DNA of 36,111 bases from Acidobacteriota bacterium (GTDB lineage: Bacteria; Acidobacteriota; Terriglobia; Versatilivoradales; Versatilivoraceae), in NCBI GenBank assembly GCA_028875135.1, contig JAPPFQ010000149.1:1-36111 (forward strand), written 5' to 3'. Positions 1 to 33,632 of the stretch are shown piece after piece (within the stretch, counting starts at the first letter, position 1; every line of letters begins with the position of its first letter). The notes beneath the pieces are model-generated. The model was given only the letters and a program-made list of their open reading frames with translations, was not told the origin of the DNA and made no database searches. The position numbers and the translations under genes are program-made.

Positions 1-776
1 CCTACTACTCGCTCGGCAGCGACCAGGTTGTCCTTCCCGAAAAGAGCCAGTTTCCGTCCGCCGACCACTACTACCAGACGGCCCTGCACGAACTGGGTCA
101 CGCCAGCGGCCATCCCGGCCGGCTCAACCGCGAGACGCTCCAGAAGGGCCTCGAGGACGGATTCGGCTCCGAGTCCTACGCCCGCGAGGAACTGCGGGCT
201 GAGATCAGCGCAATGATGACCGGAGACCGGCTGGGCACCGGACACGATCCGAGTCGGGGAGCGGCCTACGTTTCAGGCTGGGTCGAAGTGCTGGACAAGA
301 ACCCTCAGGAAATCGTCAACGCTTCGGCTGATGCCCAGCGCATGTCCAACTACCTCATCAGCCGCACCCAAGAGCGCCAGCAGGAACAGGGGGGAAAGAC
401 ACAGAACGGGCCTGTTTCCGGACAACAGCCAGACCGGCAATACCATATTGTTCCGGTTCCACACCGGACCGGCGTTTACCGTATCCAGGACGCCCAAGAC
501 CCCAACCGTCCGGTCCCCAGTCCCTACGGGGGAATGTACGGCCCCAGGGACGATGCCGAGCGGGCCATCGAGAGGCTTCACCAGGACCGGAAGCAGGGCC
601 GGCGCGCGCCCGAGCCCGTCCGGGCGGCCCGGGGCGCTATCGTCGAAAGACCTTCCAAACTCGGAAGAACCGAGTCTTTCGTCACCTCTTCCCGTGACGG
701 AGCCGTTGTCCGGGGATCCGGGCGCCCTGGCGTCCGGCAAGACCAGTTCCCCAGCCGCACAACCCCCGAGAGGTAA
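1..776 (+). CDS. ardC: ArdC-like antirestriction/ssDNA-binding metalloprotease, C-terminal part (5' end lies outside the window)
   Basis: Frame 3 is open from base 3. The translation YYSLGSDQVVLPEKSQFPSADHYYQTALHELGHASGHPGRLNRETL... carries the HExxH-type motif HELGHASGH and parallels residues of the full-length copy at 23162..24619 (about 80% nt identity by eye). Confidence 0.8.
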   Translation, partial: YYSLGSDQVVLPEKSQFPSADHYYQTALHELGHASGHPGRLNRETLQKGLEDGFGSESYAREELRAEISAMMTGDRLGTGHDPSRGAAYVSGWVEVLDKNPQEIVNASADAQRMSNYLISRTQERQQEQGGKTQNGPVSGQQPDRQYHIVPVPHRTGVYRIQDAQDPNRPVPSPYGGMYGPRDDAERAIERLHQDRKQGRRAPEPVRAARGAIVERPSKLGRTESFVTSSRDGAVVRGSGRPGVRQDQFPSRTTPER

Positions 777-779
777 CCC

Positions 780-1769
780 ATGAGCCGCTGGCCCCCCGAT
801 ATTGACCCTCGCAAGCCGCCGCCTCGTCGGGCCGCCGTTGAACGGACCGATGGCAAACAAAGCGCAGAGGACGGCCGGATTCAACAGCAGGCCAGAGAGC
901 GATGCAAACAGTCTGGACGGTGCTCCCGCAACCATCGGAAGGTCGATTTACGCACCGGCCATCGCCGTGAGTTGGGCCGCACCCGCCACAAAGGCCTGGA
1001 CATCACCGAGCGGACCCATGCCTGCCTCCAGGAAGTGGGCCTTTACCGCTGCGCCTCGCACTGCGACCTGGTCGAGGCCCACTTCTCGGGCAACCGCTTC
1101 GCCGGCGCCAAAGGCCTCCAGCGCCTGGTCCGCTCCGGAGCCATGCAGGAGCACCAGGTCCGCGGCCCCAAGGGAGGCAGCTTCACCCTCTACACGCTGA
1201 CCAAAGCGGGAGCCGCCCTGGCCAAACGCCTTGCCGTCAAGCACGGCCTTGACTCCGAGCAGCGGGCCTGGTCCGGCATGGTGAAGCCCCGCGAGGCGTC
1301 CCACGACGCCGATGTCGCCAAGGCCTGCCGCAAGGAGATCGAGGCCCTCACTGCCCGGGGAGCCCGGCTCCGACGCATCCTGATCGACGCCGAGCTGAAA
1401 GGCATCCTGGCGAAACAGAGCGAAACTGCCCGCGCCCGGCACGGCAAGGAAGAAGCCGACCGTGCCAGGCGCAAAGCGGCTACCGAGCTGCACCTGCCCT
1501 GTGACGACCAGGGCCACGTGCAGATTCCCGATGCGCAAATTCAATACGTTGACGAGGCCGGGAACCTCGGCCGCGTCAATGTCGAGGTGGGGACCGACCA
1601 TTACCGGGAGGCCAGCGTCAAGGCCAAGAGCGCTGGCGGTTTCTCGATGCACGGCGGAAAGGGCGGCCAGGCACCGAACACCCGCACCAGCCTGTCCTCG
1701 CTGGGAGGCGGAGGAGGACGAAGGGGCGGCGGGCGCAGCAGCGGCGATCCCGCCTCGGTGGAGATTTGA
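780..1769 (+). CDS. Replication-relaxation-like winged-helix protein (function inferred)
   Basis: The ATG lies 3 nt after the ardC stop; 329 aa. The N-terminal wHTH-like segment (ERTHACLQEVGLYRCASHCDLVEAHF...LQRLVRSGAM) is followed by SHDADV...PDAQIQYVDEAGNLGRVNVEV, a pattern resembling Replic_Relax / PD-(D/E)xK-like proteins. It has a Gly/Arg-rich tail and a paralogue at 24623..25657. Confidence 0.6.
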   Translation: MSRWPPDIDPRKPPPRRAAVERTDGKQSAEDGRIQQQARERCKQSGRCSRNHRKVDLRTGHRRELGRTRHKGLDITERTHACLQEVGLYRCASHCDLVEAHFSGNRFAGAKGLQRLVRSGAMQEHQVRGPKGGSFTLYTLTKAGAALAKRLAVKHGLDSEQRAWSGMVKPREASHDADVAKACRKEIEALTARGARLRRILIDAELKGILAKQSETARARHGKEEADRARRKAATELHLPCDDQGHVQIPDAQIQYVDEAGNLGRVNVEVGTDHYREASVKAKSAGGFSMHGGKGGQAPNTRTSLSSLGGGGGRRGGGRSSGDPASVEI

Positions 1770-1770
1770 C

Positions 1771-2085
1771 ATGCACCCATGGAGGGTCAGCTTCGGCCTG
1801 ACCTGCATGCTGTCCGCCCTGGGGGTCCTGTTCGGCTTCGAGCGGCTGGTATATCTGAGGCCCTACGCTTCCCTGATCTGGGAGCAGTATGCGGGCCTGA
1901 TCCTTGCGCACCTCGTGGTGCTTGTCCTGTCGGTAGCCGCCGGCATCCACTACCTGGCGCGCCTCGTGGGCCTGGGCGATGCCGGCCGCAAGGTCGAGCA
2001 GGTCGAGCTCGCAGTTCGGCGCGGTGAGGGTGATCGCGAACTGGCCGCCGCCCTGCAGCGCGACAGTGAAGGAAGATGGGAATAG
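1771..2085 (+). CDS. Small membrane protein (two hydrophobic helices plus a charged C-terminus)
   Basis: The ATG is 1 nt after the upstream stop (TGAcATG); 104 aa, MHPWRVSFGLTCMLSALGVLFGF... A conserved paralogue lies at 25659..25973. The longer ORF-track version (1462..) overlaps the upstream gene and was trimmed. Confidence 0.65.
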   Translation: MHPWRVSFGLTCMLSALGVLFGFERLVYLRPYASLIWEQYAGLILAHLVVLVLSVAAGIHYLARLVGLGDAGRKVEQVELAVRRGEGDRELAAALQRDSEGRWE

Positions 2086-2171
2086 GCTATCTTATCGGCC
2101 TGGGAATCGGCCTTCTGGTTGGAGGCCTGCTGGGCTTGGTGTGTTACATCGGCCTCACCTGGAACAAGTGA
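2076..2171 (+). CDS. Conserved 31-aa hydrophobic mini-protein (below the ORF-track cut-off)
   Basis: MGIGYLIGLGIGLLVGGLLGLVCYIGLTWNK. The ATG sits just upstream of, and overlaps, the stop region of the preceding gene (GATGGGAATAG). A homologous mini-ORF with conservative substitutions lies at 25964..26059. Confidence 0.55.
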   Translation: MGIGYLIGLGIGLLVGGLLGLVCYIGLTWNK

Positions 2172-2192
2172 ACCCACCCCGAGGGAGGGCTT

Positions 2193-3041
2193 ATGGGAAC
2201 CACCTTGCAGGAACAGCTCGACTGGTTGAATGAGGCCCGGGAGGCCGACGCAGATCTTGGTTTCCGGGGCCGCATGTTGGCCCCTTGCAGCCTGCCTTGC
2301 ACCGACCAAGGGATTCTCTCCCACTTCGTGCGCGCCAACGTCACCTTCACCTTGGCGATTAGCGCCGTTGGAAACACTATGTTCCCCTGCAGGGACCTCC
2401 CGCGCCTGCTGCTGTCCTGGGTCGGCACCGAGGCCGTGCGCACGGGTCGGCGCGTGCTCGTGCTTCGCAAGGGTTTCCGCGGCTTCATGGTCCGCCCGGG
2501 AATTCACAGCGACGGCGGGGATCCCCGCCGCCGGCTCCGCAAACAGATGAAGCGACTCTTTAGCTCCGCCACCATATCGATCCACTATCGGGGAAACCAC
2601 AAATCTGTCCGTCTGGCTGGCGACAAGGCAGTCTTCTGGCGGGACTATGACCGTCTCATTCCGAGCGAAGTCCGCCTGTCCCGGCCCTTTTTCGACTCCA
2701 CTGTGCGCCGGTCGGTCCCGGTCGGACTCAACTGCCTTCACGCCTTGCGCCGGTCCACCCTGGGCCTCGATCTCTACCTTTGGCTCACCTGCCGCACCTT
2801 CTCGCTCACTGACGCGCTCGCTTTGACCCGGGCACAGGTCTACGCCAGTATGGCCCTTTCCCTCAGAAGGCTGGCGACAACCTCACCGTCCGGAACTATC
2901 GCAGAAAAGTGCCTCGGGGAACTGAAGAAAATCAAGCTCAACTGGCCCGAGGTCAACGACGCCACCGAGCCATGGCGGCTCAATCTCCACCGGACACCGG
3001 CGCAGATCCTGCCCGGTCAAAGGCCGGACGCTTACGCCTGA
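2193..3041 (+). CDS. Plasmid replication initiator, RepA_C-like (possibly degenerate)
   Basis: 282 aa with the SD-like GAGGGAGGG upstream. The blocks LPRLLLSWVGTEAVRTGRRVL, RRRLRKQMKRLF and VPVGLNCLHALRRSTLGLDLYLWLTCR match my recollection of conserved RepA_C (PF04796) blocks. Confidence 0.55.
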   Translation: MGTTLQEQLDWLNEAREADADLGFRGRMLAPCSLPCTDQGILSHFVRANVTFTLAISAVGNTMFPCRDLPRLLLSWVGTEAVRTGRRVLVLRKGFRGFMVRPGIHSDGGDPRRRLRKQMKRLFSSATISIHYRGNHKSVRLAGDKAVFWRDYDRLIPSEVRLSRPFFDSTVRRSVPVGLNCLHALRRSTLGLDLYLWLTCRTFSLTDALALTRAQVYASMALSLRRLATTSPSGTIAEKCLGELKKIKLNWPEVNDATEPWRLNLHRTPAQILPGQRPDAYA

Positions 3042-3379
3042 GTGTACGTCTTATGTCTCCACTGCCCTGCTGCGCTTCTCTCCCGGTGACTGCTGGGCCT
3101 CCAGCCTTCCCAAGTCGCTTCACTGCCCCATCCTTCACTCGGGCCTTTGGTTGCCTCCAGTCGCTCGCCTGGCGCTTGGTCCGCTGGGCCGGCGCAATCC
3201 AGCCGCCAGAACGCTTACGCTCGCCCAACGGGCGTCTGTCAACGTGGCTTGCCCATGCCGGCCTGGCGCGGCCCTCGACTGGGCTCCGCTTCGTCCTCCC
3301 GCTCGGGTTTGGCCGGTGCCGCCAGTCCTGGGTGAGCGGCACACGCTCACAAACCCTTAACGCTTAGGAGGAACAACCA

Positions 3380-3655
3380 ATGGCAAACCAAAGACCCATC
3401 GAGACCGTTCGGATCGGATCCGTCAAGGCCGCGATTTGGGGAATTCAGGCTGGCGAGCGCACGCGCTACAACGTCACCTTCTCGAAGCGCTACCGCGACG
3501 CGCAAGGGCAGTGGAAGACGACGCACAGCTTCGGCCGCAACGACCTGCTGGTTCTCGCCAAGGTCGCCGATCAAGCCCACTCCCAGATTCTCGTTCTCGA
3601 AGCGGAGCAGGCCGAAGACACCAACGGCCAGGATGACGACGATGAGCCGCCATAG
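3380..3655 (+). CDS. Small PC4/YdbC-like ssDNA-binding protein candidate with an SSB-like acidic tail (function speculative)
   Basis: The SD is strong (TTAGGAGGAACAACCAATG); 91 aa. The beta-rich core IETVRIGSVKAAIWGIQAGERTRYNVTFSKRYRDAQGQWKTTHSFGRNDLLVL resembles the PC4-like pattern. The C-terminus is QDDDDEPP. Confidence 0.6.
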   Translation: MANQRPIETVRIGSVKAAIWGIQAGERTRYNVTFSKRYRDAQGQWKTTHSFGRNDLLVLAKVADQAHSQILVLEAEQAEDTNGQDDDDEPP

Positions 3656-3661
3656 CTCGGC

Positions 3662-3686
3662 GGGCGGCGGGTCACTCCCGCCGCCC
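3662..3686 (+). terminator. Perfect 10-bp GC hairpin downstream of 3380..3655
   Basis: GGGCGGCGGG-TCACT-CCCGCCGCCC starts 7 nt after the stop and is followed by TTCCCTTCCC (no clean U-tract). Confidence 0.5.
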
Positions 3687-3733
3687 TTCCCTTCCCGGCT
3701 CGCTTGACCTATTATCTACCTGGAGACACTGAA

Positions 3734-4063
3734 ATGACCGACTTTGAAACCGCCACCTTGACCGCCCAATACGCCACCGCCATCGCCCAGGTCCTGATCG
3801 GGCTCGGCCAGATCGCCGTGGTCTGGTACGGCATCAACCGCATGGTGTCAGCTAACGATGCCCGTGCCCTGGCTGGCGACCGGCAGGAGCGGGAAAGCGA
3901 ACGCCGCCACGCCGAAAGCATGGCCGCCCTGCAAGGGCTGATCCGAGGCCTGGATAACCAGGGCGAGGCGTTGAAGAATCAGGGCCAGGCCTTGAGCCGG
4001 CAGGGCCTGGCGCTCGAAACCCTGATCGCCCGGACCGGCGGCAGCGGGACCGCGACCGCGTGA
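3734..4063 (+). CDS. Small membrane-anchored coiled-coil protein (N-terminal TM)
   Basis: ATG preceded by GGAGA; 109 aa. The hydrophobic segment AIAQVLIGLGQIAVVWYGI is followed by the heptad-like repeats NQGEALK NQGQALS RQGLALE. The ORF-track TTG start at 3704 lacks an SD and was rejected. Confidence 0.6.
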   Translation: MTDFETATLTAQYATAIAQVLIGLGQIAVVWYGINRMVSANDARALAGDRQERESERRHAESMAALQGLIRGLDNQGEALKNQGQALSRQGLALETLIARTGGSGTATA

Positions 4064-4169
4064 CGGTCCCTCCTGGATTCCGGACGTCGCGTTTGTGACG
4101 TCCGGATTTCCTTCGACACACCGAGCCACTTTCTCCCGCGATACGGGATACCTTCCCTCCACTCAACTT

Positions 4170-4203
4170 CCACAGGCGGCGGGGCTTCGCCCCTGAGAGA
4201 GAG
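4170..4203 (+). repeat. Intergenic hairpin repeat, forward copy (CCACAGGCGGC-GGGGC-TTC-GCCCC-TGAGAGAGAG)
   Basis: Member of a six-locus family (4170, 5936 rev, 13395, 17949 rev, 21637, 23087). It lies 3' of the gene 3734..4063. Confidence 0.7.
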
Positions 4204-4350
4204 CAGATCGGGAGGGGAAAGAGTCCGTAGGATGCCCTGTGAGCGACTTTCTCAGGCTCCGACGACCTGTAGCACTCGGGAAATCGAGCCGGCCACGGCG
4301 GGAGCTAGCCGCCGCGAGGCACAAGATGTTGTGGTCGAGGATTCAGCCGG

Positions 4351-4599
4351 CTAGAGTAGCTTCGTCAAGCCTACAATCAAGGCGACAATGCCGGCCCCCT
4401 GAATCCACAAGGCCCGGAAGACTTCAGCCTTGAGGTCGGCGATGTCGGTCTTGACTTCTGCGATGTCGGTCTTGGTAGCGACCGTATCGGTGAAGGCCTC
4501 GGCCAGGGTGTCCACCACCGCGTCGGCCTGACCTTCCGCGAATCCGGCTGCCTGGAGGGTGCGGACAGCCTTGCGAGTGTCAAACGTGATAGTAGCCAT
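4351..4599 (-). CDS. DUF1640-like coiled-coil protein with a C-terminal TM
   Basis: 82 aa from the ATG preceded by GGAAGGAAG. MATITFDTRKAVRTLQAAGFAEGQADAVVDTL...ATKTDIAEVKTDIADLKAEV is followed by a hydrophobic tail. Paralogues lie at 5617..5904 and 13487..13792. Confidence 0.75.
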   Translation of the reverse strand: MATITFDTRKAVRTLQAAGFAEGQADAVVDTLAEAFTDTVATKTDIAEVKTDIADLKAEVFRALWIQGAGIVALIVGLTKLL

Positions 4600-4677
4600 G
4601 AGCTTCTTCCTTCCCCAAAGTCTACCACACCTTCCCACCTAAACCAGACGTAATTACGCAGGCACGAAATAATGTGG

Positions 4678-4705
4678 TTGCGTAGACGCGCATCTGTGGT
4701 ATTGT
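4678..4705 (+). promoter_or_regulatory. Candidate sigma70-type promoter for parA (TTGCGT-16 nt-TATTGT); would give a near-leaderless mRNA
   Basis: The -10 element ends 9 nt before the parA ATG and no SD precedes that ATG. The perfect palindrome CGTAATTACG lies at 4649-4658 just upstream. Confidence 0.3.
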
Positions 4706-4714
4706 GTTTTAACG

Positions 4715-5329
4715 ATGCGCACGATTGTCATTGCAGCTCGCAAAGGCGGAGCCGGCAAAACCACCCTTACCCGCAACCTGGCGGTTGCCGCATGCGAGGC
4801 CGGCCAGCGGGTGCTGTGCCTCGATCTCGATCCCCAGGCCTCGCTTCGTGGTTGGTGGGACAGACGGGAAGTGGAGTCCCCCTCGATGCTTGACCGTGAC
4901 CCCCAGCCAGCCGAGATACAGGCCGCCCTGGAGGCCGTGGCCGAGGCCTTCGACCTGTGTCTGATCGACACCCCGCCCACTAGGGCCGAATGGCTGAACG
5001 AGGCGCTGGTGAACGCGGACCTGGTATTGATTCCGGTACGGCCGTCTCCGGACGACCTGAGCGCCGTTGGCAACACACTCGCCGGCGTGAGCCGAGCGAG
5101 GATACCGTTTGCCTTCGTCCTGTCGCAGACACCCCGCGCCAGGATCACCGACGAAGCAGCTCGCGTCCTGGCGCAGCACGGCCGAGTGGCCCCGGTCAAC
5201 ATCAGCCATCGCGTCGTCTATGCTGAGACCGGGGCGACCGGCGAGGGAGTCACGGAAACCGGGAACAAGAAAGCCGCCGCAGAATTTGTGGCCTTGTGGG
5301 ATTACCTGAAAGGAATGCTCGATGGCTAA
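4715..5329 (+). CDS. parA: ParA/Soj-family partition ATPase
   Basis: 204 aa with the deviant Walker A KGGAGKTT near the N-terminus (MRTIVIAARKGGAGKTTLTRNLA) and LDLDPQ. Confidence 0.9.
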   Translation: MRTIVIAARKGGAGKTTLTRNLAVAACEAGQRVLCLDLDPQASLRGWWDRREVESPSMLDRDPQPAEIQAALEAVAEAFDLCLIDTPPTRAEWLNEALVNADLVLIPVRPSPDDLSAVGNTLAGVSRARIPFAFVLSQTPRARITDEAARVLAQHGRVAPVNISHRVVYAETGATGEGVTETGNKKAAAEFVALWDYLKGMLDG

Positions 5330-5564
5330 AAAACCCCTAGGGCTCGATGGATTGCTGAAAGGCGATGCGCCCCAACAGGAATCCGCTCCACGTCAAGCCC
5401 CATCGACTCCCGTGCAAAAGCAACCTGGTGAGAAGCGTGTAACCGTTGCCCTGGATGGAGCGACCTATCGCCGCCTGCGGCTGTACGCCGCCAACACGGA
5501 CTTGACCCACCAGACAATTCTTGAACGCGCACTTGCACAGTATCTGAATAACGCAAATGCGTAA
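5322..5564 (+). CDS. Ribbon-helix-helix protein, probable ParG-like centromere-binding partner
   Basis: 80 aa, overlapping the parA stop (ATGGCTAA). It has a disordered N-terminus and then the RHH-like KRVTVALDGATYRRLRLYAANTDLTHQTILERALAQYL. Confidence 0.55.
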   Translation: MAKKPLGLDGLLKGDAPQQESAPRQAPSTPVQKQPGEKRVTVALDGATYRRLRLYAANTDLTHQTILERALAQYLNNANA

Positions 5565-5616
5565 TTGCGCGAACGAGGCCGGGTGACGCTCACGAACATC
5601 TACCGCTGCGCCAATA

Positions 5617-5904
5617 TCAAAAGAAGGCGATCTTGAGAAGCAGGAGGATAATGGCCGGGCCGAAGAAGTACTTGACGATCTTGAGATCCGCTTTCACCCC
5701 TGCAATTTCAGCCTTCAGATCGGCGATGTCGGTCTTGACTTCTGCGATGTCGATCTTGACTTCTGCGATGTCGGTCTTGGTAGCGACCGTATCGGTGAAG
5801 GCCTCGGCCACGGACTGCACGATGGCTTCGGCGTGCGCCTCCTCGATGCCGGCGGCCTTGAGTTTGCGGCTGGCTTTCAGGGTGTCGAATACGGCGGTGG
5901 TCAT
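5617..5904 (-). CDS. DUF1640-like coiled-coil protein with a C-terminal TM
   Basis: 95 aa from MTTAVFDTLKASRKLKAAGIEEAHAEAIV... It contains three 21-bp (7-aa) tandem units, TDIAEVK/IDIAEVK/TDIADLK, and shares a tract of about 69 nt identical with 4437-4505. Confidence 0.75.
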   Translation of the reverse strand: MTTAVFDTLKASRKLKAAGIEEAHAEAIVQSVAEAFTDTVATKTDIAEVKIDIAEVKTDIADLKAEIAGVKADLKIVKYFFGPAIILLLLKIAFF

Positions 5905-5935
5905 GCCCTTACTCCCATGGCAAGAGTTTAGCACA

Positions 5936-5967
5936 CTCTCTCAGAGGCGCACCCCCCCCGCCTGTGG
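5936..5967 (-). repeat. Intergenic hairpin repeat, reverse-orientation copy
   Basis: CTCTCTCAGAGGCGCACCCCCCCCGCCTGTGG is a degenerate reverse complement of the 4170-type motif. It lies 3' of the minus-strand gene 6005..6898. Confidence 0.6.
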
Positions 5968-6004
5968 CGCAGGCCGCCCTGACTTTCCCGGTGCTGCAGG
6001 TCGT

Positions 6005-6898
6005 CTATTTCTCCTGGACTTGGACCTGCTCCAGCTTCTTCTTTGCTTGGGCAAGGGCGGGCCGTATATTGTTTTCTTGGATCTCTATGCTTCTCCGCAC
6101 TAAATTGAGCCCACCGAGATCCGTGGCTCGCTGCAGTTTCGGCCGTAGCGGCAGTATATTTTGCCGGCGGGCGAGGCGGGCCATGGTAACCCGATCCCCG
6201 GCCCATCGCTTCTCCCAGTAGTCGGTTTGCGCTGCCTGCACCTCTGTCAGGACCTCGATCAACTCCTCATGCATCCTGTCCAACTTTTCGATTCGCGCCG
6301 AGTAGGTCTTGCGTAATTCCTCCAGATCGGGCGGCGGCGGGGCTGGCTTGGCAGCAACCTTTTTCGGCGTAGAGACAGGAAGTCCTCTTGGTTTTGAAGC
6401 CAATCTATTCCGAGACTTCGAAGTTGATCGTGTCTTTCTTCTCGCCGCCGCCCGCTGGTGCGCTTCCTTGGCCTGCTGGACTGTTTTCTTGGCCCGCTCC
6501 GGCAAGTCTTCGGCGGAGGTGTAGAATCTTTCGGCGATAGAGCGCACACCCCTTATACTCTGCGCCAAACGAGGCAGCTCCAGATCTGTGTACTCCTTGA
6601 CATCCGTGCGTAAGGCCGCAATCTCATTCGACAGCTTCTTTTTCTTTTCCTCGTAGTCACTACGGGTAATCACGCCAGTCGAGAAAAAACCCTTGAGCTC
6701 GACTTCTGACCCTTCATAGATTTCCATGGCGGTCTTAGTCGCAGCGAGATGCTTCTCATAGACTTCTTCAACCTCGTCGAGGATCCCCAAGAGGGCTTCC
6801 CGGGTCTCGTCGGACTGTCTCTGCTCGGCACTCCGGCAGCCCAGCGACAACAGCACGACGGAGGCCAGCACGATTCCTGTGGTGAGTCGAGGGGTCAT
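6005..6898 (-). CDS. Coiled-coil, Lys/Arg-rich probable lipoprotein
   Basis: 297 aa from the ATG preceded by AGGAGAG. The ATG overlaps the recombinase stop (ATGA). The signal/lipobox-like N-terminus is MTPRLTTGIVLASVVLLSLGC, with a long helical E/K-rich body and a basic PKKVAAKPAPPPP linker. Confidence 0.6.
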   Translation of the reverse strand: MTPRLTTGIVLASVVLLSLGCRSAEQRQSDETREALLGILDEVEEVYEKHLAATKTAMEIYEGSEVELKGFFSTGVITRSDYEEKKKKLSNEIAALRTDVKEYTDLELPRLAQSIRGVRSIAERFYTSAEDLPERAKKTVQQAKEAHQRAAARRKTRSTSKSRNRLASKPRGLPVSTPKKVAAKPAPPPPDLEELRKTYSARIEKLDRMHEELIEVLTEVQAAQTDYWEKRWAGDRVTMARLARRQNILPLRPKLQRATDLGGLNLVRRSIEIQENNIRPALAQAKKKLEQVQVQEK

Positions 6899-7536
6899 TT
6901 CTTCTCTCCTTTGCCTTTGCCGATTGTGAACCGAGGCTTGTTTGGTCCTGTGCCGAAATTCTCTGCCTTTCCCAAGGGAAACCACCTGTAGAGCGTGTTC
7001 GTGCTGACCCCAAAATGTCGGGCGATGCTGGCCCGACTCATCTCTGGGTTATTTAGCAGCGTCATGGCTGTTTCGACAACCTGCCGGTCATGGAAGATGC
7101 TGGGTCGGCCCCAAGCCATGTCTTGCTCTTTCCGCTGAGAGGCGGCAAGCAAGGTACGCTCCGATATAAGTGAGCGTTCGAATTCCGCCAACGCTGCGAT
7201 GATCGCAAAGAACAGTTTTCCCATGGCTGTGCGAGTGTCGATCTGCTCGGTCAGGGACTGCAACTGAATTTTGCGCTCCTTGAGTGAACCGAGGATAGTG
7301 AGCAGGTGCTGGAGCGAGCGTCCCAGCCTGTCGAAGCGCCAGACTACCAGCGTGTCGCCGGTCGTCAATGTCGCCAGTGCTCGGTTCAGAGCGGGCCTCG
7401 CATGACGCGCCCCGGTCACATGATCAACGAAGATCTCGGCACATCCGGACGATTTCAGGACTTGAATCTGATGATCCGGATTCTGCTCCAATTTCGATAC
7501 ACGGGCATAACCGATACGCTGGGCTTTGTCCCTTAT
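6895..7536 (-). CDS. Small serine recombinase (resolvase/invertase family) with a C-terminal HTH
   Basis: IGYARVSKLEQNPDHQ (catalytic Ser motif), GDTLVVWRFDRLGRS, AEFERSLISERT and the C-terminal HTH SIARHFGVSTNTLYRW are present. The catalytic motif lies upstream of the first ATG/GTG/TTG (TTG at 7491). The start is placed at an in-frame ATA (7536) 5 nt after AGGAGG, and an in-frame TAA lies at 7563. Confidence 0.8.
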   Translation of the reverse strand: MRDKAQRIGYARVSKLEQNPDHQIQVLKSSGCAEIFVDHVTGARHARPALNRALATLTTGDTLVVWRFDRLGRSLQHLLTILGSLKERKIQLQSLTEQIDTRTAMGKLFFAIIAALAEFERSLISERTLLAASQRKEQDMAWGRPSIFHDRQVVETAMTLLNNPEMSRASIARHFGVSTNTLYRWFPLGKAENFGTGPNKPRFTIGKGKGEKK

Positions 7537-7640
7537 TTTGACCTCCTGATACAGCTCTAATTAGCTCTTGACGATTGGTTATGTATTTTCGTTACCTTCC
7601 GAGAGCCTGGACAAGGTGGTTTTATCACACAAAAAGCAGT

Positions 7641-7666
7641 GTGTCGAAATCGTTCGATTTGGTGAC
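7641..7666 (+). promoter_or_regulatory. hix-like 26-bp recombinase site, left (GTGTCGAAATCG-TT-CGATTTGGTGAC)
   Basis: 12-2-12 imperfect dyad. Bases 7645-7667 are a perfect 23-bp inverted repeat of 8012-8034. Confidence 0.55.
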
Positions 7667-8012
7667 GGAATCCGAACTGTAACACCGATATTTATTACCC
7701 AACAAGCAAAATGCGAAAAAAAACAATGCGGGAGGAGTAAGGCGATTGCGTCCCGGATGTCCCTACCAGAGGGAGTTCCGCCTGGCCTGGGCTCACCTGT
7801 CTCCTGAGGGTCCTCGGAGAGGCTCAGAAGCCCCCCCTTTCACCCCTCTTTTGCGAACTCTGGTGAAAAATGCGGGCTAGGAGTCCCCGGCCTAGAGCTG
7901 CTGTCCCCAGAGGCCGCCGCTCGGTTTCCTAGCTGCAACCTCCCTCTCCGAGCAGGTCTATCAGTATTCCCTTCAGGTATTTAGCAGATATTTTCGTTCC
8001 CTCCCAATCGAC

Positions 8013-8038
8013 GTCACCAAATCGAACGATTTCGTATC
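8013..8038 (-). promoter_or_regulatory. hix-like 26-bp recombinase site, right (inverted orientation)
   Basis: GTCACCAAATCG-AA-CGATTTCGTATC. It is the reverse complement of the left site except for the outer 3 nt and ends 30 nt before the virB2 ATG. Confidence 0.55.
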
Positions 8039-8068
8039 TGATCCCCACTATTGGCAGGAGGGCAGAGG

Positions 8069-8371
8069 ATGAAGAACACCAACTCTATCACCTGGAAGCA
8101 TCTTGTCCTGCTGGCGGTCTTTCTGGCGCTTTCAGCCGGAGAACTCCTGGCCCAGGGAACACCGCCGGCCAGTCCCTGGGAAAACGCCATCCAGGTACTG
8201 GAGACGGCCTTTACCGGCCCTATCGCTCGCGGTTTATCGCTGATTGCCATTGTTGTTGGCGGCTTGATGTTTGCCTTTGGAGAAGGCGGATCGAAGAAGG
8301 CGCTGGCCGGTATCGTCTTTGGCCTTGGCATGGCTATGGGTGCAGCGAACTTCCTGGGCTGGCTGTTCTAG
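8069..8371 (+). CDS. virB2: VirB2/TrbC-family T4SS pilin
   Basis: 100 aa from the ATG preceded by GGAGGG. It has a signal-like N-terminus (LVLLAVFLALSAGELLAQG) and two hydrophobic helices, and is the first gene of the T4SS cluster. Confidence 0.7.
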   Translation: MKNTNSITWKHLVLLAVFLALSAGELLAQGTPPASPWENAIQVLETAFTGPIARGLSLIAIVVGGLMFAFGEGGSKKALAGIVFGLGMAMGAANFLGWLF

Positions 8372-8378
8372 GTATTAC

Positions 8379-8675
8379 ATGCACGATCTGAAAATCTGGC
8401 GGGGGCATGCGACGCTGAGTGCGCCCTTGAAAATGATGGGCGTCGAGCGGCGCTGGTTTCTTCTCTCCGTAACGGTCGCCCTGGCGCTATGGAACGCGGT
8501 CAACTCCCTCCTGCTCGGAGGCATGATCTTTGGCGTTCTCTACACCGCCGGACTGCTGGCTTGGCGGAAAGATCCGGCCATGCTGTCCATTCTCAAAGTC
8601 TCGGCGAGCTGCCGCGCCCGATACGATCCGGGCAAGTGGAGCCCCTCTCCTTTTGTTGTGGTGATCCGCGAATGA
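8379..8675 (+). CDS. virB3: VirB3/TrbD-like T4SS inner-membrane protein
   Basis: 98 aa with LSAPLKMMGVERRWFLLSVTVALALW plus a second TM. It sits between the pilin gene and virB4, and its stop overlaps the virB4 start (ATGA). Confidence 0.65.
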   Translation: MHDLKIWRGHATLSAPLKMMGVERRWFLLSVTVALALWNAVNSLLLGGMIFGVLYTAGLLAWRKDPAMLSILKVSASCRARYDPGKWSPSPFVVVIRE

Positions 8676-11092
8676 ACCTTGCAGAAGAAGCCAAGGATTT
8701 CGAGGCGGCCGGGGCGCTGGCCGACGAGCTCCCCTATTGGGGCTGGCTCCCCGATGGCGAGTGCCTGCTTGGCCGCAACGGAAACCTCATAGCCATTGGC
8801 CAACTCTCTCCGACTCCTGTCGACGGCCGCGAGGCGGTTCACCTGGACCGCGTCATAGACCGCTGGCAACGCGCCCTGTCCAACCTTGACCACAAGATGC
8901 GGCTCTATTTCTACTTTCTCCGTCGGCCGCCGGAGATCCCCCAGCCGGTCAGCAACGCCAGCGAGGTGGTCCGCCTGTCCCAGCAGCGCCGGGCCGAGTT
9001 CCTGGCCGGCCGCGTTTCAGACGTTTCCGTCTTCGTCGCCTGGTGCTATGACTCGGGCCTTCAAGCAGCCAGCTCCGAGGTAGACAGCGGAGTGATCCCC
9101 TGGATGCGTCAGTGGATCACCCAACGCAAGAAGCCCAATGAGGCTGTCTATCTCCGTCGAGCTGTCGAAGCAGCGGCTGAGCAGTTTCGCCAGGCGGTCG
9201 CCGCCAGCCGGGCACTGGTCTCCGACATTACCCCCATCGACCTGCTGGGCCCCAAACAGGGCTCACGCTTTCTCTCCGAGCTGGTGAACCGTCCCGGAAC
9301 ACCCTGGAGCGGCGCCACAGACGCGGGTCTCAACTGGCAACTCGCCGTGTCCGAGCTGGAGGCCGAGCGGCGCTTTCTCCGCCTCGACGGTGTTCCCGCC
9401 GTGGTCTATTCCATGCTGTCCCCGCCCGGAGAGGCCAGGGCCAACCTCCTGGCCGATCTTTTTCGTCTGGACGCTACTTCGACTGTAAGCCTGGAGTGGA
9501 AGCGATGGGGGCTTGACGCCGCCCGGCGAAAGATCCGTAGCGCCCAAAAACACTACTTCTCAAAGCGCTATTCCATGGCCGCCCACATGCAGGACACCCA
9601 GGGAACGGCCGCCGCTATGACCGACACCGCCGCCGAGGCCGCCTCCAGCCGGCTGGGCTCCGCGCTTGTCGAGCTGGAGGCCGATGGTGTCTCCTACGGT
9701 TCCATCACCTGCACCGTTACCCTCCATGGCGACCATGAGCAGATCGACCACCTGGACGGCGAGGTCCGGAGGATCTTCAACACCTACGACGCCAAGGTGA
9801 TCCGGGAAGGATACGGCCAGCTTCCGGCCTGGTTCTGCCGGCTGCCCGGGCAGCCGCCCAGCCGCAACGTCCGCAGCGTTTTTGCATCCGCTGGCCTCTG
9901 CGCCTGTCTGGCCCCCCTCTTTGGGGCCTCCACAGGCAGACCCACCAGCAAACACTTGGGCCGGCCCGCCCTTGCCGTCCTGGAAACCCGGAACAAGACC
10001 CCCTACCACTATGACCTGTTCGCCGGCGACGTGGGCCACACCCTCATTCTCGGAGCGACCGGCGCGGGCAAGAGCTTCACTCTCAACTTCCTGTTGGTCT
10101 CAGCCCTTCAGTACGATCCCCGAGTTCTAATCCTCGATCTGGGCGGCTCCTACCGCTGGCTCACGTCCTTTCTGGGCGGTTCCTACCTGGAGCTTTCCCC
10201 TTCCGAGGAGGGAAGCGCCACTTTCAAGCTACGGCCGTTTTCCCTGCCGGCGACCGAGCGTACCTACCAATTCCTGGCCGGCTGGGTCGCGCGCCTGTTG
10301 AGGATCGGCGGCGGGGATCTCGCCGGAGCCGACACCACCGAGATTCACGACCGCATCGTGGATCTCTACAAACTCCCTCCGAACCACCGGACCCTGGGCG
10401 ACTTGGTCCGCACCCTGCCTCAAAAGATGTGGCCCCCGCTGTCCCGGTGGCACGGCTCGGGGGCCTGGGGCGCGGTCTTTGACAACCCGGCCACCGGCGA
10501 CGACCTGAAACTGGCCGACTGGCAAGTGATCGACCTGGCCGGCGCGGCCGAGCACGAGGACTTGTGCGAGGCCGCCCTTTTCTATCTGCTGGAGCGCTTG
10601 CGGCTCGCCCTGGAAGACCCGGACGAGACCGCCCGCGTCAAGCTCATGGTTGTGGACGAGGCCTGGCGCTATCTCCGCGACCCCGCCGTCCTGTCCTACC
10701 TGGCGGAAGCCGCCAAGACCTGGAGAAAGAAAAACGCCGCGCTGATCCTGGCCACGCAGTCCGCCGTTGACCTTACAGGCACCGCCGGTGCCGCCGCGCT
10801 GCTTGAGTCTCTCCCGACCAAGCTGTTTCTCGCCAATCCCGACCTGCCGTCCTCGGTCGCCGAAGTGTTCCACTTGAACGACCACGAGGTTGAGGCCATC
10901 CGAAGCCTCCTGCCCAAGCGGGAAATGTACCTGCGCCGCTCCGACGAGTTCGCCATTCTTCGGCTTAACGTGGACAGACAAGGCTACTGGCTCTACACGT
11001 CTTCCGCTGTGGACGCCGAGAAGCGGTCCCAGGCCGTTGAGCAGCACGGCCTGGTGCGCGGCATCGAACACCTTGCAAAGGGGGTCCAATGA
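8672..11092 (+). CDS. virB4: VirB4/TrbE-family T4SS ATPase
   Basis: 806 aa from the ATGA-coupled start, with Walker A LILGATGAGKSF and Walker B-like KLMVVDEAWRYL. Confidence 0.9.
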   Translation: MNLAEEAKDFEAAGALADELPYWGWLPDGECLLGRNGNLIAIGQLSPTPVDGREAVHLDRVIDRWQRALSNLDHKMRLYFYFLRRPPEIPQPVSNASEVVRLSQQRRAEFLAGRVSDVSVFVAWCYDSGLQAASSEVDSGVIPWMRQWITQRKKPNEAVYLRRAVEAAAEQFRQAVAASRALVSDITPIDLLGPKQGSRFLSELVNRPGTPWSGATDAGLNWQLAVSELEAERRFLRLDGVPAVVYSMLSPPGEARANLLADLFRLDATSTVSLEWKRWGLDAARRKIRSAQKHYFSKRYSMAAHMQDTQGTAAAMTDTAAEAASSRLGSALVELEADGVSYGSITCTVTLHGDHEQIDHLDGEVRRIFNTYDAKVIREGYGQLPAWFCRLPGQPPSRNVRSVFASAGLCACLAPLFGASTGRPTSKHLGRPALAVLETRNKTPYHYDLFAGDVGHTLILGATGAGKSFTLNFLLVSALQYDPRVLILDLGGSYRWLTSFLGGSYLELSPSEEGSATFKLRPFSLPATERTYQFLAGWVARLLRIGGGDLAGADTTEIHDRIVDLYKLPPNHRTLGDLVRTLPQKMWPPLSRWHGSGAWGAVFDNPATGDDLKLADWQVIDLAGAAEHEDLCEAALFYLLERLRLALEDPDETARVKLMVVDEAWRYLRDPAVLSYLAEAAKTWRKKNAALILATQSAVDLTGTAGAAALLESLPTKLFLANPDLPSSVAEVFHLNDHEVEAIRSLLPKREMYLRRSDEFAILRLNVDRQGYWLYTSSAVDAEKRSQAVEQHGLVRGIEHLAKGVQ

Positions 11093-23161: not shown

Positions 23162-24619
23162 ATGGCCAAGCCGGACAAGCATCGAGAGCGCGCCGAGCGC
23201 TATCACAAGGAGTTCGCCGCGCAGCTCATCAAGCAGGTCGAGAAAGGCACCGCGCCCTGGCAGAAGTCCTGGAAGGTTGGAGAGCGCATCGGTCCCCGCA
23301 ACCTGGCCAGCGACCGCCCCTACAGCGGCAGCAACACCGTCCGCCTCATGGCCGTGGCCACCGACAAGGGCTATTCCGATTCCCGCTGGGCCACCTACGA
23401 GCAGATCCAGGCGGTCGGCGGCCAGGTGCGCAAGGGTGAGCGCGGGACCCGCATCCTCTCCTTCAAGAGCCATCGGCGGGTCGAGGTCAAGGACGACAAG
23501 GGCACCCCCGTCAAGGACGAAAACGGAAAGCAGGTCTACAGGCACGAAAAGCTGGACCGCCCCCTTACCCGCATCTACACCGTCTTCAACGTCGAGCAGG
23601 CGCGGGGCATCAAGCCCGAGCCCAGGCCTGAGCCCGCCCAGGCCTGGAAGGCCCACAAACGGGCCGAGGACGTTATCAAGGCCTCCGGCGTCCCCGTCAA
23701 GCACGTCCACGGGGACCGCGCCTACTACTCGCTCCCGAGCGACCAGGTCGTGCTTCCCGAGAAGGTGCAGTTCCCGTCCTCCGACACCTACTACCAGACG
23801 GCGCTCCACGAGCTGGGCCACGCCAGCGGCCATCCCGACCGCCTCAACCGCGACACCCTCCAGCAGGGAATCGAGGACGGCTTCGGCTCCCAGGCCTACG
23901 CCCGCGAGGAGCTGCGGGCTGAAATCAGCGCCATGATGACCGGCGACCGGCTGGGCACCGGACACGACCCCAGCCGGGGAGCGGCCTACGTCTCCAGCTG
24001 GGTCCAGGTCCTGGACAAGAACCCCAAGGAGATCCTCAACGCTTCGGCCGAGGCCCAGCGCATGTCCAACTACCTCGTCAGCCGCACCCGGGAGCGGGAG
24101 CAGGATCAGGGCCAAAAGACCCATGAGGCCGCTGCCGGACAACAGCAGGAGCCTCGCTACGTCGAGCAGGCCAAGCAACCTACCGCTGCGCGCGAGCCAG
24201 ACTCGCCAACCCACAGGCATCAGGACGACCATCGCGGCGCTCACGCCGGCAGGCCGAAGGAACCCGGCCGCACCTACCACGTCCGCGAGGTCTCACACCG
24301 GCCTGGCGTCTACACCATTGAAGACACCAAAGAACCCGACCGGCTGGTTCCCTCTCCCTATGGCCGCATGTACACCGGAAAGGCTGAGGCCGAGGAAGGC
24401 ATGAAACGCCTTGTCGAGGCGCAGGACAAGGGCGGGCGCTGGCCCGACAACTACACCCGCGCCGCCCAAGGCCGCATCGTCGAGGCCGAACCGACCTTCA
24501 AGGACCGAGGCTCCGCCGCCCGCGTCACATCCCCTTTCGAGGGCGGTGTGGTCCGGGGGGCCGGACGGCCGGGCGTCCAGAAAGACCAGTTCCCAAGCCG
24601 GGGAGGACCCGAGAGGTAA
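23162..24619 (+). CDS. ardC: ArdC-like antirestriction protein (N-terminal ssDNA-binding domain plus metalloprotease domain) with a long C-terminal extension
   Basis: 485 aa. The N-terminus has GTAPWQKSW...RPYSGSNTVRLM...GYSDSRWATYEQIQAVGGQVRKGERG (DUF1738-type), followed by the HELGHASGH metalloprotease motif. Confidence 0.85.
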   Translation: MAKPDKHRERAERYHKEFAAQLIKQVEKGTAPWQKSWKVGERIGPRNLASDRPYSGSNTVRLMAVATDKGYSDSRWATYEQIQAVGGQVRKGERGTRILSFKSHRRVEVKDDKGTPVKDENGKQVYRHEKLDRPLTRIYTVFNVEQARGIKPEPRPEPAQAWKAHKRAEDVIKASGVPVKHVHGDRAYYSLPSDQVVLPEKVQFPSSDTYYQTALHELGHASGHPDRLNRDTLQQGIEDGFGSQAYAREELRAEISAMMTGDRLGTGHDPSRGAAYVSSWVQVLDKNPKEILNASAEAQRMSNYLVSRTREREQDQGQKTHEAAAGQQQEPRYVEQAKQPTAAREPDSPTHRHQDDHRGAHAGRPKEPGRTYHVREVSHRPGVYTIEDTKEPDRLVPSPYGRMYTGKAEAEEGMKRLVEAQDKGGRWPDNYTRAAQGRIVEAEPTFKDRGSAARVTSPFEGGVVRGAGRPGVQKDQFPSRGGPER

Positions 24620-24622
24620 GCC

Positions 24623-25657: not shown

Positions 25658-25658
25658 C

Positions 25659-33234: not shown

Positions 33235-33260
33235 GTGTCGAAATCGTTCGATTTGGTGAC
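33235..33260 (+). promoter_or_regulatory. hix-like site, left (copy 2)
   Basis: Identical to 7641..7666. Confidence 0.55.
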
Positions 33261-33606
33261 GGAATCCGAACTGTAACACCGATATTTATTACCCAACAAG
33301 CAAAATGCGAAAAAAAACAATGCGGGAGGAGTAAGGCGATTGCGTCCCGGATGTCCCTACCAGAGGGAGTTCCGCCTGGCCTGGGCTCACCTGTCTCCTG
33401 AGGGTCCTCGGAGAGGCTCAGAAGCCCCCCCTTTCACCCCTCTTTTGCGAACTCTGGTGAAAAATGCGGGCTAGGAGTCCCCGGCCTAGAGCTGCTGTCC
33501 CCAGAGGCCGCCGCTCGGTTTCCTAGCTGCAACCTCCCTCTCCGAGCAGGTCTATCAGTATTCCCTTCAGGTATTTAGCAGATATTTTCGTTCCCTCCCA
33601 ATCGAC

Positions 33607-33632
33607 GTCACCAAATCGAACGATTTCGTATC
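33607..33632 (-). promoter_or_regulatory. hix-like site, right (copy 2)
   Basis: Identical to 8013..8038. The bracketed segment has the same orientation as in copy 1. Confidence 0.55.

What the first reader, a model, noticed from the sequence alone, without database searches (positions are those of the whole stretch)
7641..8038. Hix-like inverted sites bracket a 370-bp segment between a serine recombinase and the T4SS pilin operon: candidate invertible switch for conjugation
Seen: CGAAATCGTTCGATTTGGTGACG (7645-7667) recurs as a perfect 23-bp reverse complement at 8012-8034. Each copy sits in a 26-bp imperfect dyad with 12-2-12 geometry (GTGTCGAAATCG-TT-CGATTTGGTGAC; 9/12 half-site symmetry) and a non-palindromic TT/AA core. 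The cores are 370 bp apart. The bracketed DNA is AT-rich and has no credible ORF. It contains an A8 tract (7716-7723). A 17-nt word, TATTTTCGTTMCCTYCC, occurs once outside the left site (7584-7600) and once inside next to the right site (7989-8005). The segment lies exactly between the divergent small serine recombinase (start about 7536, minus strand) and virB2 (ATG 8069), and the right site ends 30 nt before that ATG. Established: Hin/Gin/Cin-type serine invertases of about 190-210 aa act on 26-bp 12-2-12 sites in inverted orientation. Resolvase res sites, by contrast, are three subsites clustered within about 120 bp. Inference: a phase-variable switch that turns the T4SS/pilus operon (or the recombinase-lipoprotein operon) ON or OFF. 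Both copies in this window (7641-8038 and 33235-33632) have the same orientation, so the sequence gives no direct evidence of flipping, and I could not place a convincing promoter by eye.
Basis: partly seen in the sequence, partly recalled or inferred. Interest (0 to 1): 0.85.

Follow-up and report, generated by a model that had tools for sequence, protein, structure and literature searches.

The report
Inverted recombinase sites before T4SS operon
A small plasmid from an uncultured bacterium carries two conserved, oppositely oriented binding sites for its Gin-like recombinase between that gene and the conjugation-pilus operon, which may form a flip-switch for conjugation, but no flipped copy was seen and one site also looks like an ordinary plasmid-resolution site.

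Summary
A perfect 23-bp inverted repeat (7645-7667 / 8012-8034) sits inside two 26-bp 12-2-12 dyads with a TT/AA core, between a serine recombinase and virB2. The second copy in the window is an exact duplicate from the assembly, not an independent example.

New evidence: the same site pair occurs in four or five related metagenomic plasmids (recombinase 78-85% identical). The 14-bp centre is invariant in all nine sites. The DNA between the sites is unrelated in sequence and ranges from 173 bp to 1.6 kb, including parA-parG in one lineage. The recombinase is closest to Gin invertase. One conserved promoter-like element lies just inside the left site and points at the recombinase. It would point at virB2 after inversion, and virB2 has no conserved promoter of its own.

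Against a switch: at least 11 assemblies all show one orientation. More distant relatives have a single site. The left site with its conserved leader resembles a Sin/beta-type res site.

Verdict: candidate invertible promoter (about 0.4). The main rival is a resolution site plus an operator, with no inversion (about 0.3). It would be a new variant of a known kind, with moderate interest. Read mapping is needed to decide.

The parts
7641..7666 (+). Site L: 26-bp dyad GTGTCGAAATCG-TT-CGATTTGGTGAC, next to the recombinase. The outer half (7641-7652) is invariant in 5 lineages.
8013..8038 (-). Site R: 26-bp dyad in inverted orientation (GATACGAAATCG-TT-CGATTTGGTGAC on the minus strand), next to virB2. 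Its outer half is conserved for only 8 of 12 bp between lineages.
7667..8012 (.). Bracketed segment, non-coding, 55% GC. It is replaced by 173 bp (L007), 219 bp (L010) or 1627 bp carrying parA-parG-106aa (L001) in relatives. It has no Rfam match and no RNA-structure signal.
7676..7705 (-). P_in: promoter-like element TTGTTG-18-TGT-TACAGT inside the segment, firing out across site L toward the recombinase. The same position and TGnTAnAGT motif occur in all 5 lineages.
   Evidence: This is a prediction only.
7716..7723 (+). A8 tract (a T-tract just upstream of P_in on the minus strand, like an UP element). An A-rich run is conserved in L007 and L010.
7537..7640 (-). Conserved leader between site L and the recombinase start. 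It holds the dyad CACAC-N8-GTGTG (7626-7643, overlapping the outer end of site L), a TTGTCC-18-GAAAAT promoter-like element (7585-7614), and head-to-tail repeats TAACGAAAATAC (7583-7594) and TAACCAATCG (7572-7581). The repeats lie +60 and +73 from the site centre and could be a Sin-like accessory 'site II'.
7989..8005 (+). Second copy of the 17-nt word (TATTTTCGTTCCCTCCC), inside the segment 6 nt from the 23-bp repeat arm of site R (7 nt from the 26-bp dyad). It is present in the window and L007, weak in L001 and absent in L010.
6895..7536 (-). Small serine recombinase (213 aa; Resolvase + HTH_7), 44% identical to Gin. It is the only site-specific recombinase found among the ORFs of the plasmid unit that were scanned. 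No ATG, GTG or TTG precedes the catalytic Ser, and the apparent start is ATA, 5 nt after AGGAGG.
6005..6898 (-). 297-aa coiled-coil lipoprotein (lipobox LSLGC). Its start overlaps the recombinase stop (ATGA). This gene is not conserved in relative L001.
8069..8371 (+). virB2/trbC pilin, first gene of the T4SS operon (VirB3, B4, B9, B10, B6, B8, VirD4, VirB11 follow).
33235..33632 (.). Exact duplicate of 7641-8038, part of the 28757-36111 = 3163-10517 repeat. It is not an independent copy.

Best explanation
The two sites are crossover sites for the adjacent Gin-like serine recombinase, and the DNA between them is an invertible segment.

Proposed mechanism (inferred):
- A recombinase dimer binds each 26-bp dyad.
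- The sites pair with their TT cores aligned, which is possible only in the inverted arrangement.
- Strand exchange at the central dinucleotide flips the segment.

The segment carries an outward-firing promoter (P_in) at its left edge. In the assembled orientation P_in drives the recombinase(-lipoprotein) operon, and virB2 has no conserved promoter, so the T4SS would be low or OFF. After inversion P_in would sit directly upstream of site R and virB2, so the T4SS would be ON. The recombinase would then keep only its external promoters.

Site L, with its conserved 100-bp leader, probably also serves as the plasmid's multimer-resolution (res-like) and autoregulatory site. This is the ancestral single-site role seen in more distant relatives.

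Shown here: the sites, their conservation and polarity, the family of the recombinase, and the position of the promoter-like element. Inferred: binding, inversion, promoter activity and the effect on the T4SS.
For: - The inverted repeat is far beyond chance.
- The same pair is found in L001-L006, L007/L032-34, L010 and (one site only on short contigs) L011/L012. The centre AAATCG-TT-CGATTT is invariant in 9/9 sites, and the polarity is always outer half-TT-inner half.
- The bracketed DNA is unrelated between lineages and measures 173-1627 bp, while the sites stay at its borders.
- Gin is the closest solved relative (145 bits, against 68 bits or less for resolvases).
- The site geometry is 12-2-12 = 26 bp, as for hix (PMC3798978).
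- P_in (TTGnnn-17/18-TGn-TAnAGT) is the top or second-ranked promoter-like element in all four full loci. It sits 28-30 nt inside site L and always points outward.
- In L007 the outer half of site R runs into the virB2 RBS, so virB2 transcription must start in or before the segment. No conserved promoter in the virB2 direction was found there.
- P_in and site R are absent from single-site relatives.
- Only two sites exist per plasmid, so this is not a plasmid-wide operator.
Against: - No assembly shows the inverted state. This covers the window plus L008/L009, at least five L001-type contigs and three L007-type contigs from three samples.
- The inner flanks have the same orientation in all lineages.
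- The outer half of site R is degenerate beyond 8 bp.
- Relatives at 55-63% identity carry one site plus the same downstream repeats. The enzyme family therefore looks like plasmid resolvases, and the asymmetric core is not diagnostic.
- The Gin/Hin helix-B basic motif KRALK, needed for Fis-enhancer activation, reads NRALA here (PMC3798978).
- No enhancer can be identified.
- Promoters are consensus predictions in an unknown host. A weak rightward candidate (TYRGCT-17-TATTTT) left of site L cannot be excluded.
Confidence: 0.4

Rival explanations
1. Resolution site plus operator, with no programmed inversion. Site L with its leader is a Sin/beta-type res site (crossover site I, bent spacer, head-to-tail site II). 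It would be used for plasmid multimer resolution and for autoregulation of the recombinase. Site R is an isolated copy of site I that the recombinase only binds, repressing or roadblocking virB2 transcription, much as Tn3 resolvase represses tnpA. The inverted orientation would simply reflect each site facing its own gene.
For: - Relatives at 55-63% identity on similar RepA_C/T4SS plasmids have a single site within 5 kb.
- All eight lineages have T[AT]nCnAAAAT[AC] at +58 to +61 and a second copy 12-13 nt later. This matches the Sin res layout of site I, spacer and direct-repeat site II in 86 bp (PMC2428073, PMC9943657).
- It is the only recombinase found among the ORFs of the plasmid that were scanned.
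- All assemblies have one orientation.
- Site R lies over the virB2 RBS and promoter zone.
- The outer half of site R is degenerate.
Against: - I know of no precedent for an isolated crossover-site copy used purely as an operator (own knowledge).
- It does not explain why P_in appears together with site R only in this sub-family.
- No conserved virB2 promoter was found in the present orientation.
- The +60/+73 repeats could equally be the -10 and start region of the recombinase promoter.
- The recombinase scores 60 bits against Sin and 145 against Gin.
Confidence: 0.3
2. Recombination hot-spot or cassette borders. The two sites are real crossover sites, but their main effect is evolutionary. 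Occasional intermolecular or double exchange between related plasmids swaps the DNA between the sites. Any inversion would be rare and have no regulatory role.
For: - The bracketed DNA is entirely different in each lineage. In L001 it is a whole partition cassette whose ParA is only 37% identical to the window's ParA, which lies elsewhere.
- The inner arms are identical within a lineage but differ between lineages: GGTGACG in the window against GGTGATGGATG in L001.
- The window itself joins two 83-85% diverged plasmid variants through an identical 7.4-kb block.
Against: - The inner flanks next to both sites are conserved between lineages (P_in in 5 of 5, the word in 2-3 of 4). Whole cassettes are therefore not exchanged at the core.
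- The junction of the duplicated block in the window is at about 2960-3163, not at the sites.
- Ordinary intergenic indels explain the length variation equally well.
Confidence: 0.12
3. Terminal inverted repeats of a small non-autonomous transposable element (MITE), or a chance palindrome pair.
For: A 23-bp perfect inverted repeat brackets about 350 bp of non-coding DNA.
Against: - There is no target-site duplication: the flanks are TGTGT and TATCT.
- There are no other copies in the window, in GTDB genomes, in IMG/VR or in JGI metagenomes beyond chance.
- The repeats are conserved at the same gene borders while the content changes, including housekeeping par genes.
- Each arm is itself a dyad like a recombinase site.
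Confidence: 0.02

Closest known systems
Hin/hix, Gin/gix, Cin/cix enhancer-dependent DNA invertase systems
   Same: - Small serine recombinase with Resolvase + HTH_7 domains, 44% identical to Gin.
- Two 26-bp 12-2-12 sites in inverted orientation with an asymmetric 2-bp core (hix is 26 bp, PMC3798978).
- The recombinase gene lies just outside one site, as for gin and cin (own knowledge).
- An outward-firing promoter-like element inside the segment, as in the H segment.
   Different: - No Fis-type enhancer can be identified, and the helix-B motif KRALK reads NRALA.
- The host is unknown and probably lacks Fis.
- The segment is as short as 173 bp.
- No inverted state has been observed.
- Close relatives of the enzyme have single sites.
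- The target would be a T4SS operon, not flagellin or tail fibres.
Sin resH and beta recombinase six sites (two-subsite res of Gram-positive plasmids)
   Same: - Plasmid-borne small serine recombinase with its site immediately upstream of its own gene.
- A crossover dyad plus head-to-tail half-site-like repeats about 60-85 bp away, about 100 bp in total against 86 bp for Sin (PMC2428073).
- Beta recombinase catalyses both resolution and inversion, depending on site orientation (Canosa et al. 2003, cited in PMC2428073).
   Different: - Weak sequence relation (Sin 60 bits).
- Binding to the repeats is not shown.
- Site R lacks the accessory element at the equivalent spacing.
- The two sites are 0.2-1.7 kb apart within one plasmid monomer.
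Mpi-type invertible promoters of Bacteroidales (serine recombinase)
   Same: Short (about 200-370 bp) promoter-bearing segments between inverted repeats of about 20-26 bp, flipped by a serine recombinase of about 200 aa (own knowledge).
   Different: The recombinase scores 49.6 bits against the NCBIfam Mpi model, whose cut-off is 272. It has a single local target rather than many, the repeat sequence is different, and the element is a plasmid with a T4SS.
Tn3/gamma-delta res, with TnpR as repressor of divergent genes
   Same: Recombinase-binding sites lie in the region between the recombinase gene and a divergently transcribed gene, and autoregulation is likely.
   Different: Tn3 res is three dyads within 114 bp, with no DNA-bending host protein (PMC2428073); by my own recollection its crossover site is 28 bp with a palindromic core. 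Here there are two 26-bp sites with a TT core, 201-1655 bp apart, and only 26% identity to gamma-delta resolvase.
R64/IncI shufflon (Rci)
   Same: Site-specific inversion on a conjugative plasmid that changes the conjugation apparatus (own knowledge; PMC9045228 describes an IncI2 example).
   Different: Rci is a tyrosine recombinase. The shufflon rearranges the PilV C-termini of a type IV pilus and does not turn the T4SS operon on or off.

Membership tests
Enhancer-dependent DNA invertase systems (Hin/Gin/Cin/Pin) | Small serine recombinase of the invertase clade | tested here: inconclusive
   Closest solved structure is Gin (E 2e-41, 44% identity) against gamma-delta, Tn3 and Sin at E 1e-17 to 1e-15. 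However, relatives at 55-63% identity have single sites like resolvases.
Enhancer-dependent DNA invertase systems (Hin/Gin/Cin/Pin) | Two 26-bp (12-2-12) crossover sites in inverted orientation with identical asymmetric core | tested here: met
   7641-7666 and 8013-8038, core TT/AA. Conserved in four full loci.
Enhancer-dependent DNA invertase systems (Hin/Gin/Cin/Pin) | Cis-acting recombinational enhancer bound by Fis, and the recombinase residues that contact it | tested here: inconclusive
   An enhancer cannot be recognised from sequence. The Gin/Hin helix-B motif KRALK reads NRALA, so the Hin K51 equivalent is Ala (PMC3798978).
Enhancer-dependent DNA invertase systems (Hin/Gin/Cin/Pin) | The segment is found in both orientations | tested here: inconclusive
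   At least 11 consensus assemblies from several samples are all in one orientation. Minority orientations in reads could not be examined.
Sin/beta-type res (two-subsite resolution site) | Crossover dyad plus head-to-tail accessory site II across a bent spacer, about 86 bp, upstream of the recombinase gene | tested here: inconclusive
   Repeats at +58 to +61 and 12-13 nt later are conserved in 8 lineages. They overlap a promoter-like -10, and binding was not tested.
Sin/beta-type res (two-subsite resolution site) | One res per plasmid monomer | tested here: not met
   There are two site-I-like dyads per unit in this sub-family. A single site is seen only in more distant relatives.
Tn3/gamma-delta res | Three dyad subsites within about 114-120 bp, and a 28-bp site I with a palindromic core | tested here: not met
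   The sites are 26 bp with a TT core and lie 372 bp apart. No three-dyad cluster is present.
Mpi family master invertase | Score above the NCBIfam NF009949 cut-off | tested here: not met
   49.6 bits against a cut-off of 272.
MITE / transposon terminal inverted repeats | Target-site duplication and multiple dispersed copies | tested here: not met
   No duplication at the flanks. No further copies in the window or in public collections.

The most novel reading that the evidence does not exclude
One Gin-like recombinase does two jobs on a deep-branching conjugative plasmid. It resolves multimers at a Sin-like res site. With a second, inverted crossover site, it also flips a short promoter cassette between its own operon and the virB/T4SS operon. 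Conjugation would then be phase-variable (bet-hedged), with most cells held in the OFF orientation seen in assemblies.
Probability: 0.3. Interest if true: 0.8.

Novelty: new variant of a known kind. Interest (0 to 1): 0.55.

Why it matters
Expressing conjugation machinery is costly and exposes cells to pilus-specific phages, so plasmids normally repress it with transcription factors. A DNA-inversion ON/OFF switch for an entire T4SS operon, run by the plasmid's own resolvase-like enzyme, would be a different and heritable form of control. I found no description of such a switch in the papers searched. It would also be a natural case of one small serine recombinase using a res-like site and a bare crossover site together. 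That bears on how invertases and resolvases evolved from each other. If no inversion occurs, the finding reduces to a plasmid resolution site with an extra operator, which is of modest interest.

Tried and rejected
- Rfam scan of 7400-8200 at E <= 1: no match.
- Sigma-70 and terminator consensus scan: nothing at the tool's threshold.
- RNA folding of the segment on both strands: z about 0.2, so no structured RNA.
- PLSDB by DNA: only distant recombinase fragments. A short site query gave chance hits, such as the intergenic DNA upstream of an ArsR-family regulator gene in Rothia.
- Exact-site scans: JGI metagenomes 0 hits and IMG/VR 0 hits. GTDB genomes gave 3 hits with no homologues of the window's proteins, so they are chance matches.
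- Protein-based scan of JGI metagenomes: only 41-49% relatives. 16 of 80 have some inverted repeat near the gene, which I did not follow up.
- Wider VirB2 family (about 80% identity; L020-L031, L035): no recombinase and no sites. There virB2 sits inside an ArdC-299aa-107aa-virB2 operon or next to repA.
- A P_in-like block upstream of virB2 in L035 would have suggested an ancestral T4SS promoter now inverted. The shared stretch is only a 10-mer (E 0.66), so I rejected it.
- Host identification failed. No source names were available, and VirB4 is under 30% identical to any PLSDB plasmid, with Acidobacteria plasmids the best hits.
- A direct-repeat reading of the sites gives 15/22 matches against 23/23 for the inverted reading, so I rejected it.

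Full report
**1. The observation**

- CGAAATCGTTCGATTTGGTGACG at 7645-7667 recurs as a perfect reverse complement at 8012-8034. Dinucleotide-preserving shuffles give no such match even with three mismatches allowed.
- Each arm lies in a 26-bp 12-2-12 dyad. Site L is 7641-7666, GTGTCGAAATCG-TT-CGATTTGGTGAC. Site R is 8013-8038, GTCACCAAATCG-AA-CGATTTCGTATC. Both have 9/12 half-site symmetry, and 370 bp separate the cores.
- The A8 tract (7716-7723) and the 17-nt word (7584-7600 and 7989-8005, 15/17) are present.
- The bracketed DNA is 55% GC against 64% for the window, so it is only relatively AT-rich.
- It has no Rfam match, no unusual RNA fold and no conserved ORF.

The 'second copy' at 33235-33632 is not independent. 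Window 3163-10517 is identical to 28757-36111. The first 2.2 kb of the window is an 83-85% variant of 23721-26059. The window is the whole 36,111-bp contig. The real unit is therefore a plasmid of about 25.6 kb, and the contig runs through two strain variants or a heterodimer.

**2. Context**

- Pfam confirms a small serine recombinase at 6895-7536 (-) with Resolvase and HTH_7 domains.
- A lipoprotein gene at 6005-6898 (-) overlaps the recombinase stop codon.
- Upstream lie ParA, a RepA_C protein and two small coiled-coil proteins.
- On the other side lie TrbC/VirB2 (8069-8371), VirB3, VirB4, VirB9, VirB10, VirB6, VirB8, VirD4 and VirB11, then a RepB-type primase and ArdC.
- No other site-specific recombinase was found among the ORFs scanned.
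- VirB4 is under 30% identical to anything in PLSDB. No genome in GTDB carries the element. The host is unknown.

**3. Relatives**

The recombinase has few close relatives. Their contigs were fetched.
- L008 and L009 are identical to the window.
- Four other lineages (recombinase 78-85% identical) carry the same sites: L001-L006, L007/L032-L034, L010 and L011/L012.
- The central AAATCG-TT-CGATTT is invariant in all nine sites. The polarity is always outer half-TT-inner half.
- One site always lies 85-110 nt upstream of the recombinase start. The other lies 16-37 nt upstream of the virB2 ATG.
- In L007 the outer half of the virB2 site runs straight into the ribosome-binding site (CGATTTCGACAGGAGG...ATG).
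- The DNA between the sites is not homologous between lineages. It measures 344 bp in the window, 173 bp in L007, 219 bp in L010 and 1627 bp in L001.
- In L001 the bracketed DNA encodes parA, parG and a 106-aa protein. That ParA is only 37% identical to the window's ParA, which lies elsewhere.
- The arms are identical over 23 bp in the window and 27 bp in L001, with a C-to-T difference present in both arms of L001.
- Only two sites exist per plasmid, so this is not a dispersed operator.
- The wider VirB2 family (about 80% identity) has neither the recombinase nor the sites.

**4. What favours an invertible switch**

- The recombinase aligns to Gin invertase at E 2e-41 (44% identity overall, 53% in the catalytic part). 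It aligns to gamma-delta, Tn3 and Sin resolvases only at E 1e-17 to 1e-15.
- The sites have the 26-bp geometry of hix (PMC3798978) and an asymmetric core that can align only in the inverted arrangement.
- The alignment of the five recombinase-proximal regions shows an invariant TG.TA.AGT block 28-30 nt inside site L.
- A simple -35/-10 scoring ranks this element first or second on its strand in all four complete loci: TTGTTG-18-TGT-TACAGT in the window (7676-7705, minus strand), TTGTAC-17-TGG-TAAAGT, TTGCAT-17-TGC-TAAAGT and TTGCAC-17-TGT-TAGAGT in the others. A T-tract lies just upstream.
- I call this element P_in. It lies inside the bracketed segment and fires outward across site L toward the recombinase. 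After inversion it would fire across site R into virB2.
- No promoter in the virB2 direction is conserved next to site R. Yet virB2 transcription must begin in or before the segment.
- Neither P_in nor site R was found in the more distant single-site relatives.

**5. What argues against it**

- Every assembly has the same orientation: the window, L008 and L009, at least five L001-type contigs, and three L007-type contigs from three different samples.
- The inner flanks (P_in at site L, the word at site R) have the same orientation in all lineages. Consensus assemblies cannot exclude a minority orientation, but a balanced switch is unlikely.
- The outer half of site R is conserved for only 8 of 12 bp.
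- Relatives at 55-63% identity (L016-L019) sit on similar RepA_C/T4SS plasmids of 25-40 kb. Each has one dyad (for example CCAAAAGG-AA-CCGTTTGG) about 130 bp upstream of the recombinase, and no second copy within 5 kb.
- When all eight lineages are aligned on the site centre, each has T[AT]nCnAAAAT[AC] at +58 to +61 and a second similar motif 12-13 nt later. In this sub-family, L016 and L017 the core reads AA on the recombinase-sense strand.
- That layout matches Sin/beta-type res sites: crossover site I, a spacer bent by HU or IHF, and a head-to-tail site II, 86 bp in all (PMC2428073, PMC9943657). The same block could also be the -10 of a recombinase promoter (TTGTCC-18-GAAAAT).
- Site L is therefore probably the plasmid's resolution and autoregulation site, and the asymmetric core is ancestral rather than specific to invertases.
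- The helix-B basic motif that Hin needs for Fis-enhancer activation (KRALK in Gin) reads NRALA here (PMC3798978).

**6. Weighing the explanations**

Pairs of inverted crossover sites beside a small serine recombinase are, in known biology, inversion systems. The co-occurrence of site R with an outward-firing promoter-like element and a virB2 gene lacking its own promoter fits a switch whose assembled state is T4SS-OFF. The uniform orientation and the res-like character of site L fit a resolvase whose second site is only an operator.
- Invertible promoter, with site L doubling as res: about 0.4.
- Res plus operator, without inversion: about 0.3.
- Cassette-exchange hot-spot without a regulatory role: about 0.12.
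- MITE or chance: about 0.02.
- The remainder is unassigned.

**7. Comparison with known systems, and novelty**

It works most like Hin/Gin-type inversion or the dual resolution and inversion activity of beta recombinase. I do not file it as a member of either.
- The enhancer and the two orientations are untested.
- The 'one res per monomer' feature of resolution systems is not met.
- It is not an Mpi-family enzyme (49.6 bits against a cut-off of 272).
- It is not a Tn3-type res site.

Two literature searches found no serine-invertase switch for a T4SS operon. The known conjugation-related inversion system is the tyrosine-recombinase shufflon. If real, this is a new variant of a known kind. 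If not, it is an ordinary plasmid resolution module with an extra binding site.

I give 0.55.

Noticed in passing
window 7534-7536 (minus strand); L007 and L010 equivalents: The recombinase has no ATG, GTG or TTG between the upstream in-frame stop and the catalytic Ser. Gene callers therefore truncated it to 149-174 aa (P0002, P0004, P0005). A conserved AGGAGG is followed 5-6 nt later by an invariant AAAT[A/C], so the start codon is probably AUA or AUC. Such a start would keep expression low.
   Followed up: partly
window 1-3162, 3163-10517 and 28757-36111: The window is the whole contig. It contains an exact repeat of at least 7,355 bp at an offset of 25,594. Its first 2.2 kb is an 83-85% variant of 23721-26059. 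This is either an assembly path through two strain variants of a circular plasmid of about 25.6 kb, or a heterodimer.
   Followed up: partly
window 4351-4638 (-) and 5617-5934 (-): Two paralogous small coiled-coil proteins (weak CCDC90-like hits) flank parA-parG in the same orientation. They share a 136-bp repeat at 83% identity (4429-4564 and 5734-5869). L011 has a homologue next to its site.
   Followed up: no
window 7626-7643: An invariant dyad CACAC-N8-GTGTG lies immediately outside site L and overlaps its outer end. It is conserved in all five lineages. It could be a further protein-binding site or a leader hairpin.
   Followed up: no
window 6895-6898 and 6005-6898 (-): The recombinase stop overlaps the start of a 297-aa coiled-coil lipoprotein gene (ATGA; lipobox LLSLGC). 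Downstream genes differ in L007 and L010, and the gene is absent in L001.
   Followed up: partly
L035 4850-4892: A related TARA plasmid has about five tandem copies of GCAAGACC between repA (RepA_C) and virB2. They look like iterons.
   Followed up: no
L020-L031: VirB2 proteins about 80% identical are common in long-read ENA metagenomes. They occur on circular plasmid-size contigs and on contigs of 0.1-4 Mb. They always sit in a 64aa-ArdC-299aa-107aa-virB2-virB3-virB4 operon next to RepA_C and a Peptidase_S24 (LexA-like) gene. VirB4 of this lineage is under 30% identical to PLSDB plasmids.
   Followed up: partly
L043, L052, L067, L070, L074, L080, L097: Several recombinases 41-49% identical from JGI metagenomes have inverted repeats of 17-54 bp beside or around the gene. 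These are possible further inversion or transposon systems.
   Followed up: no
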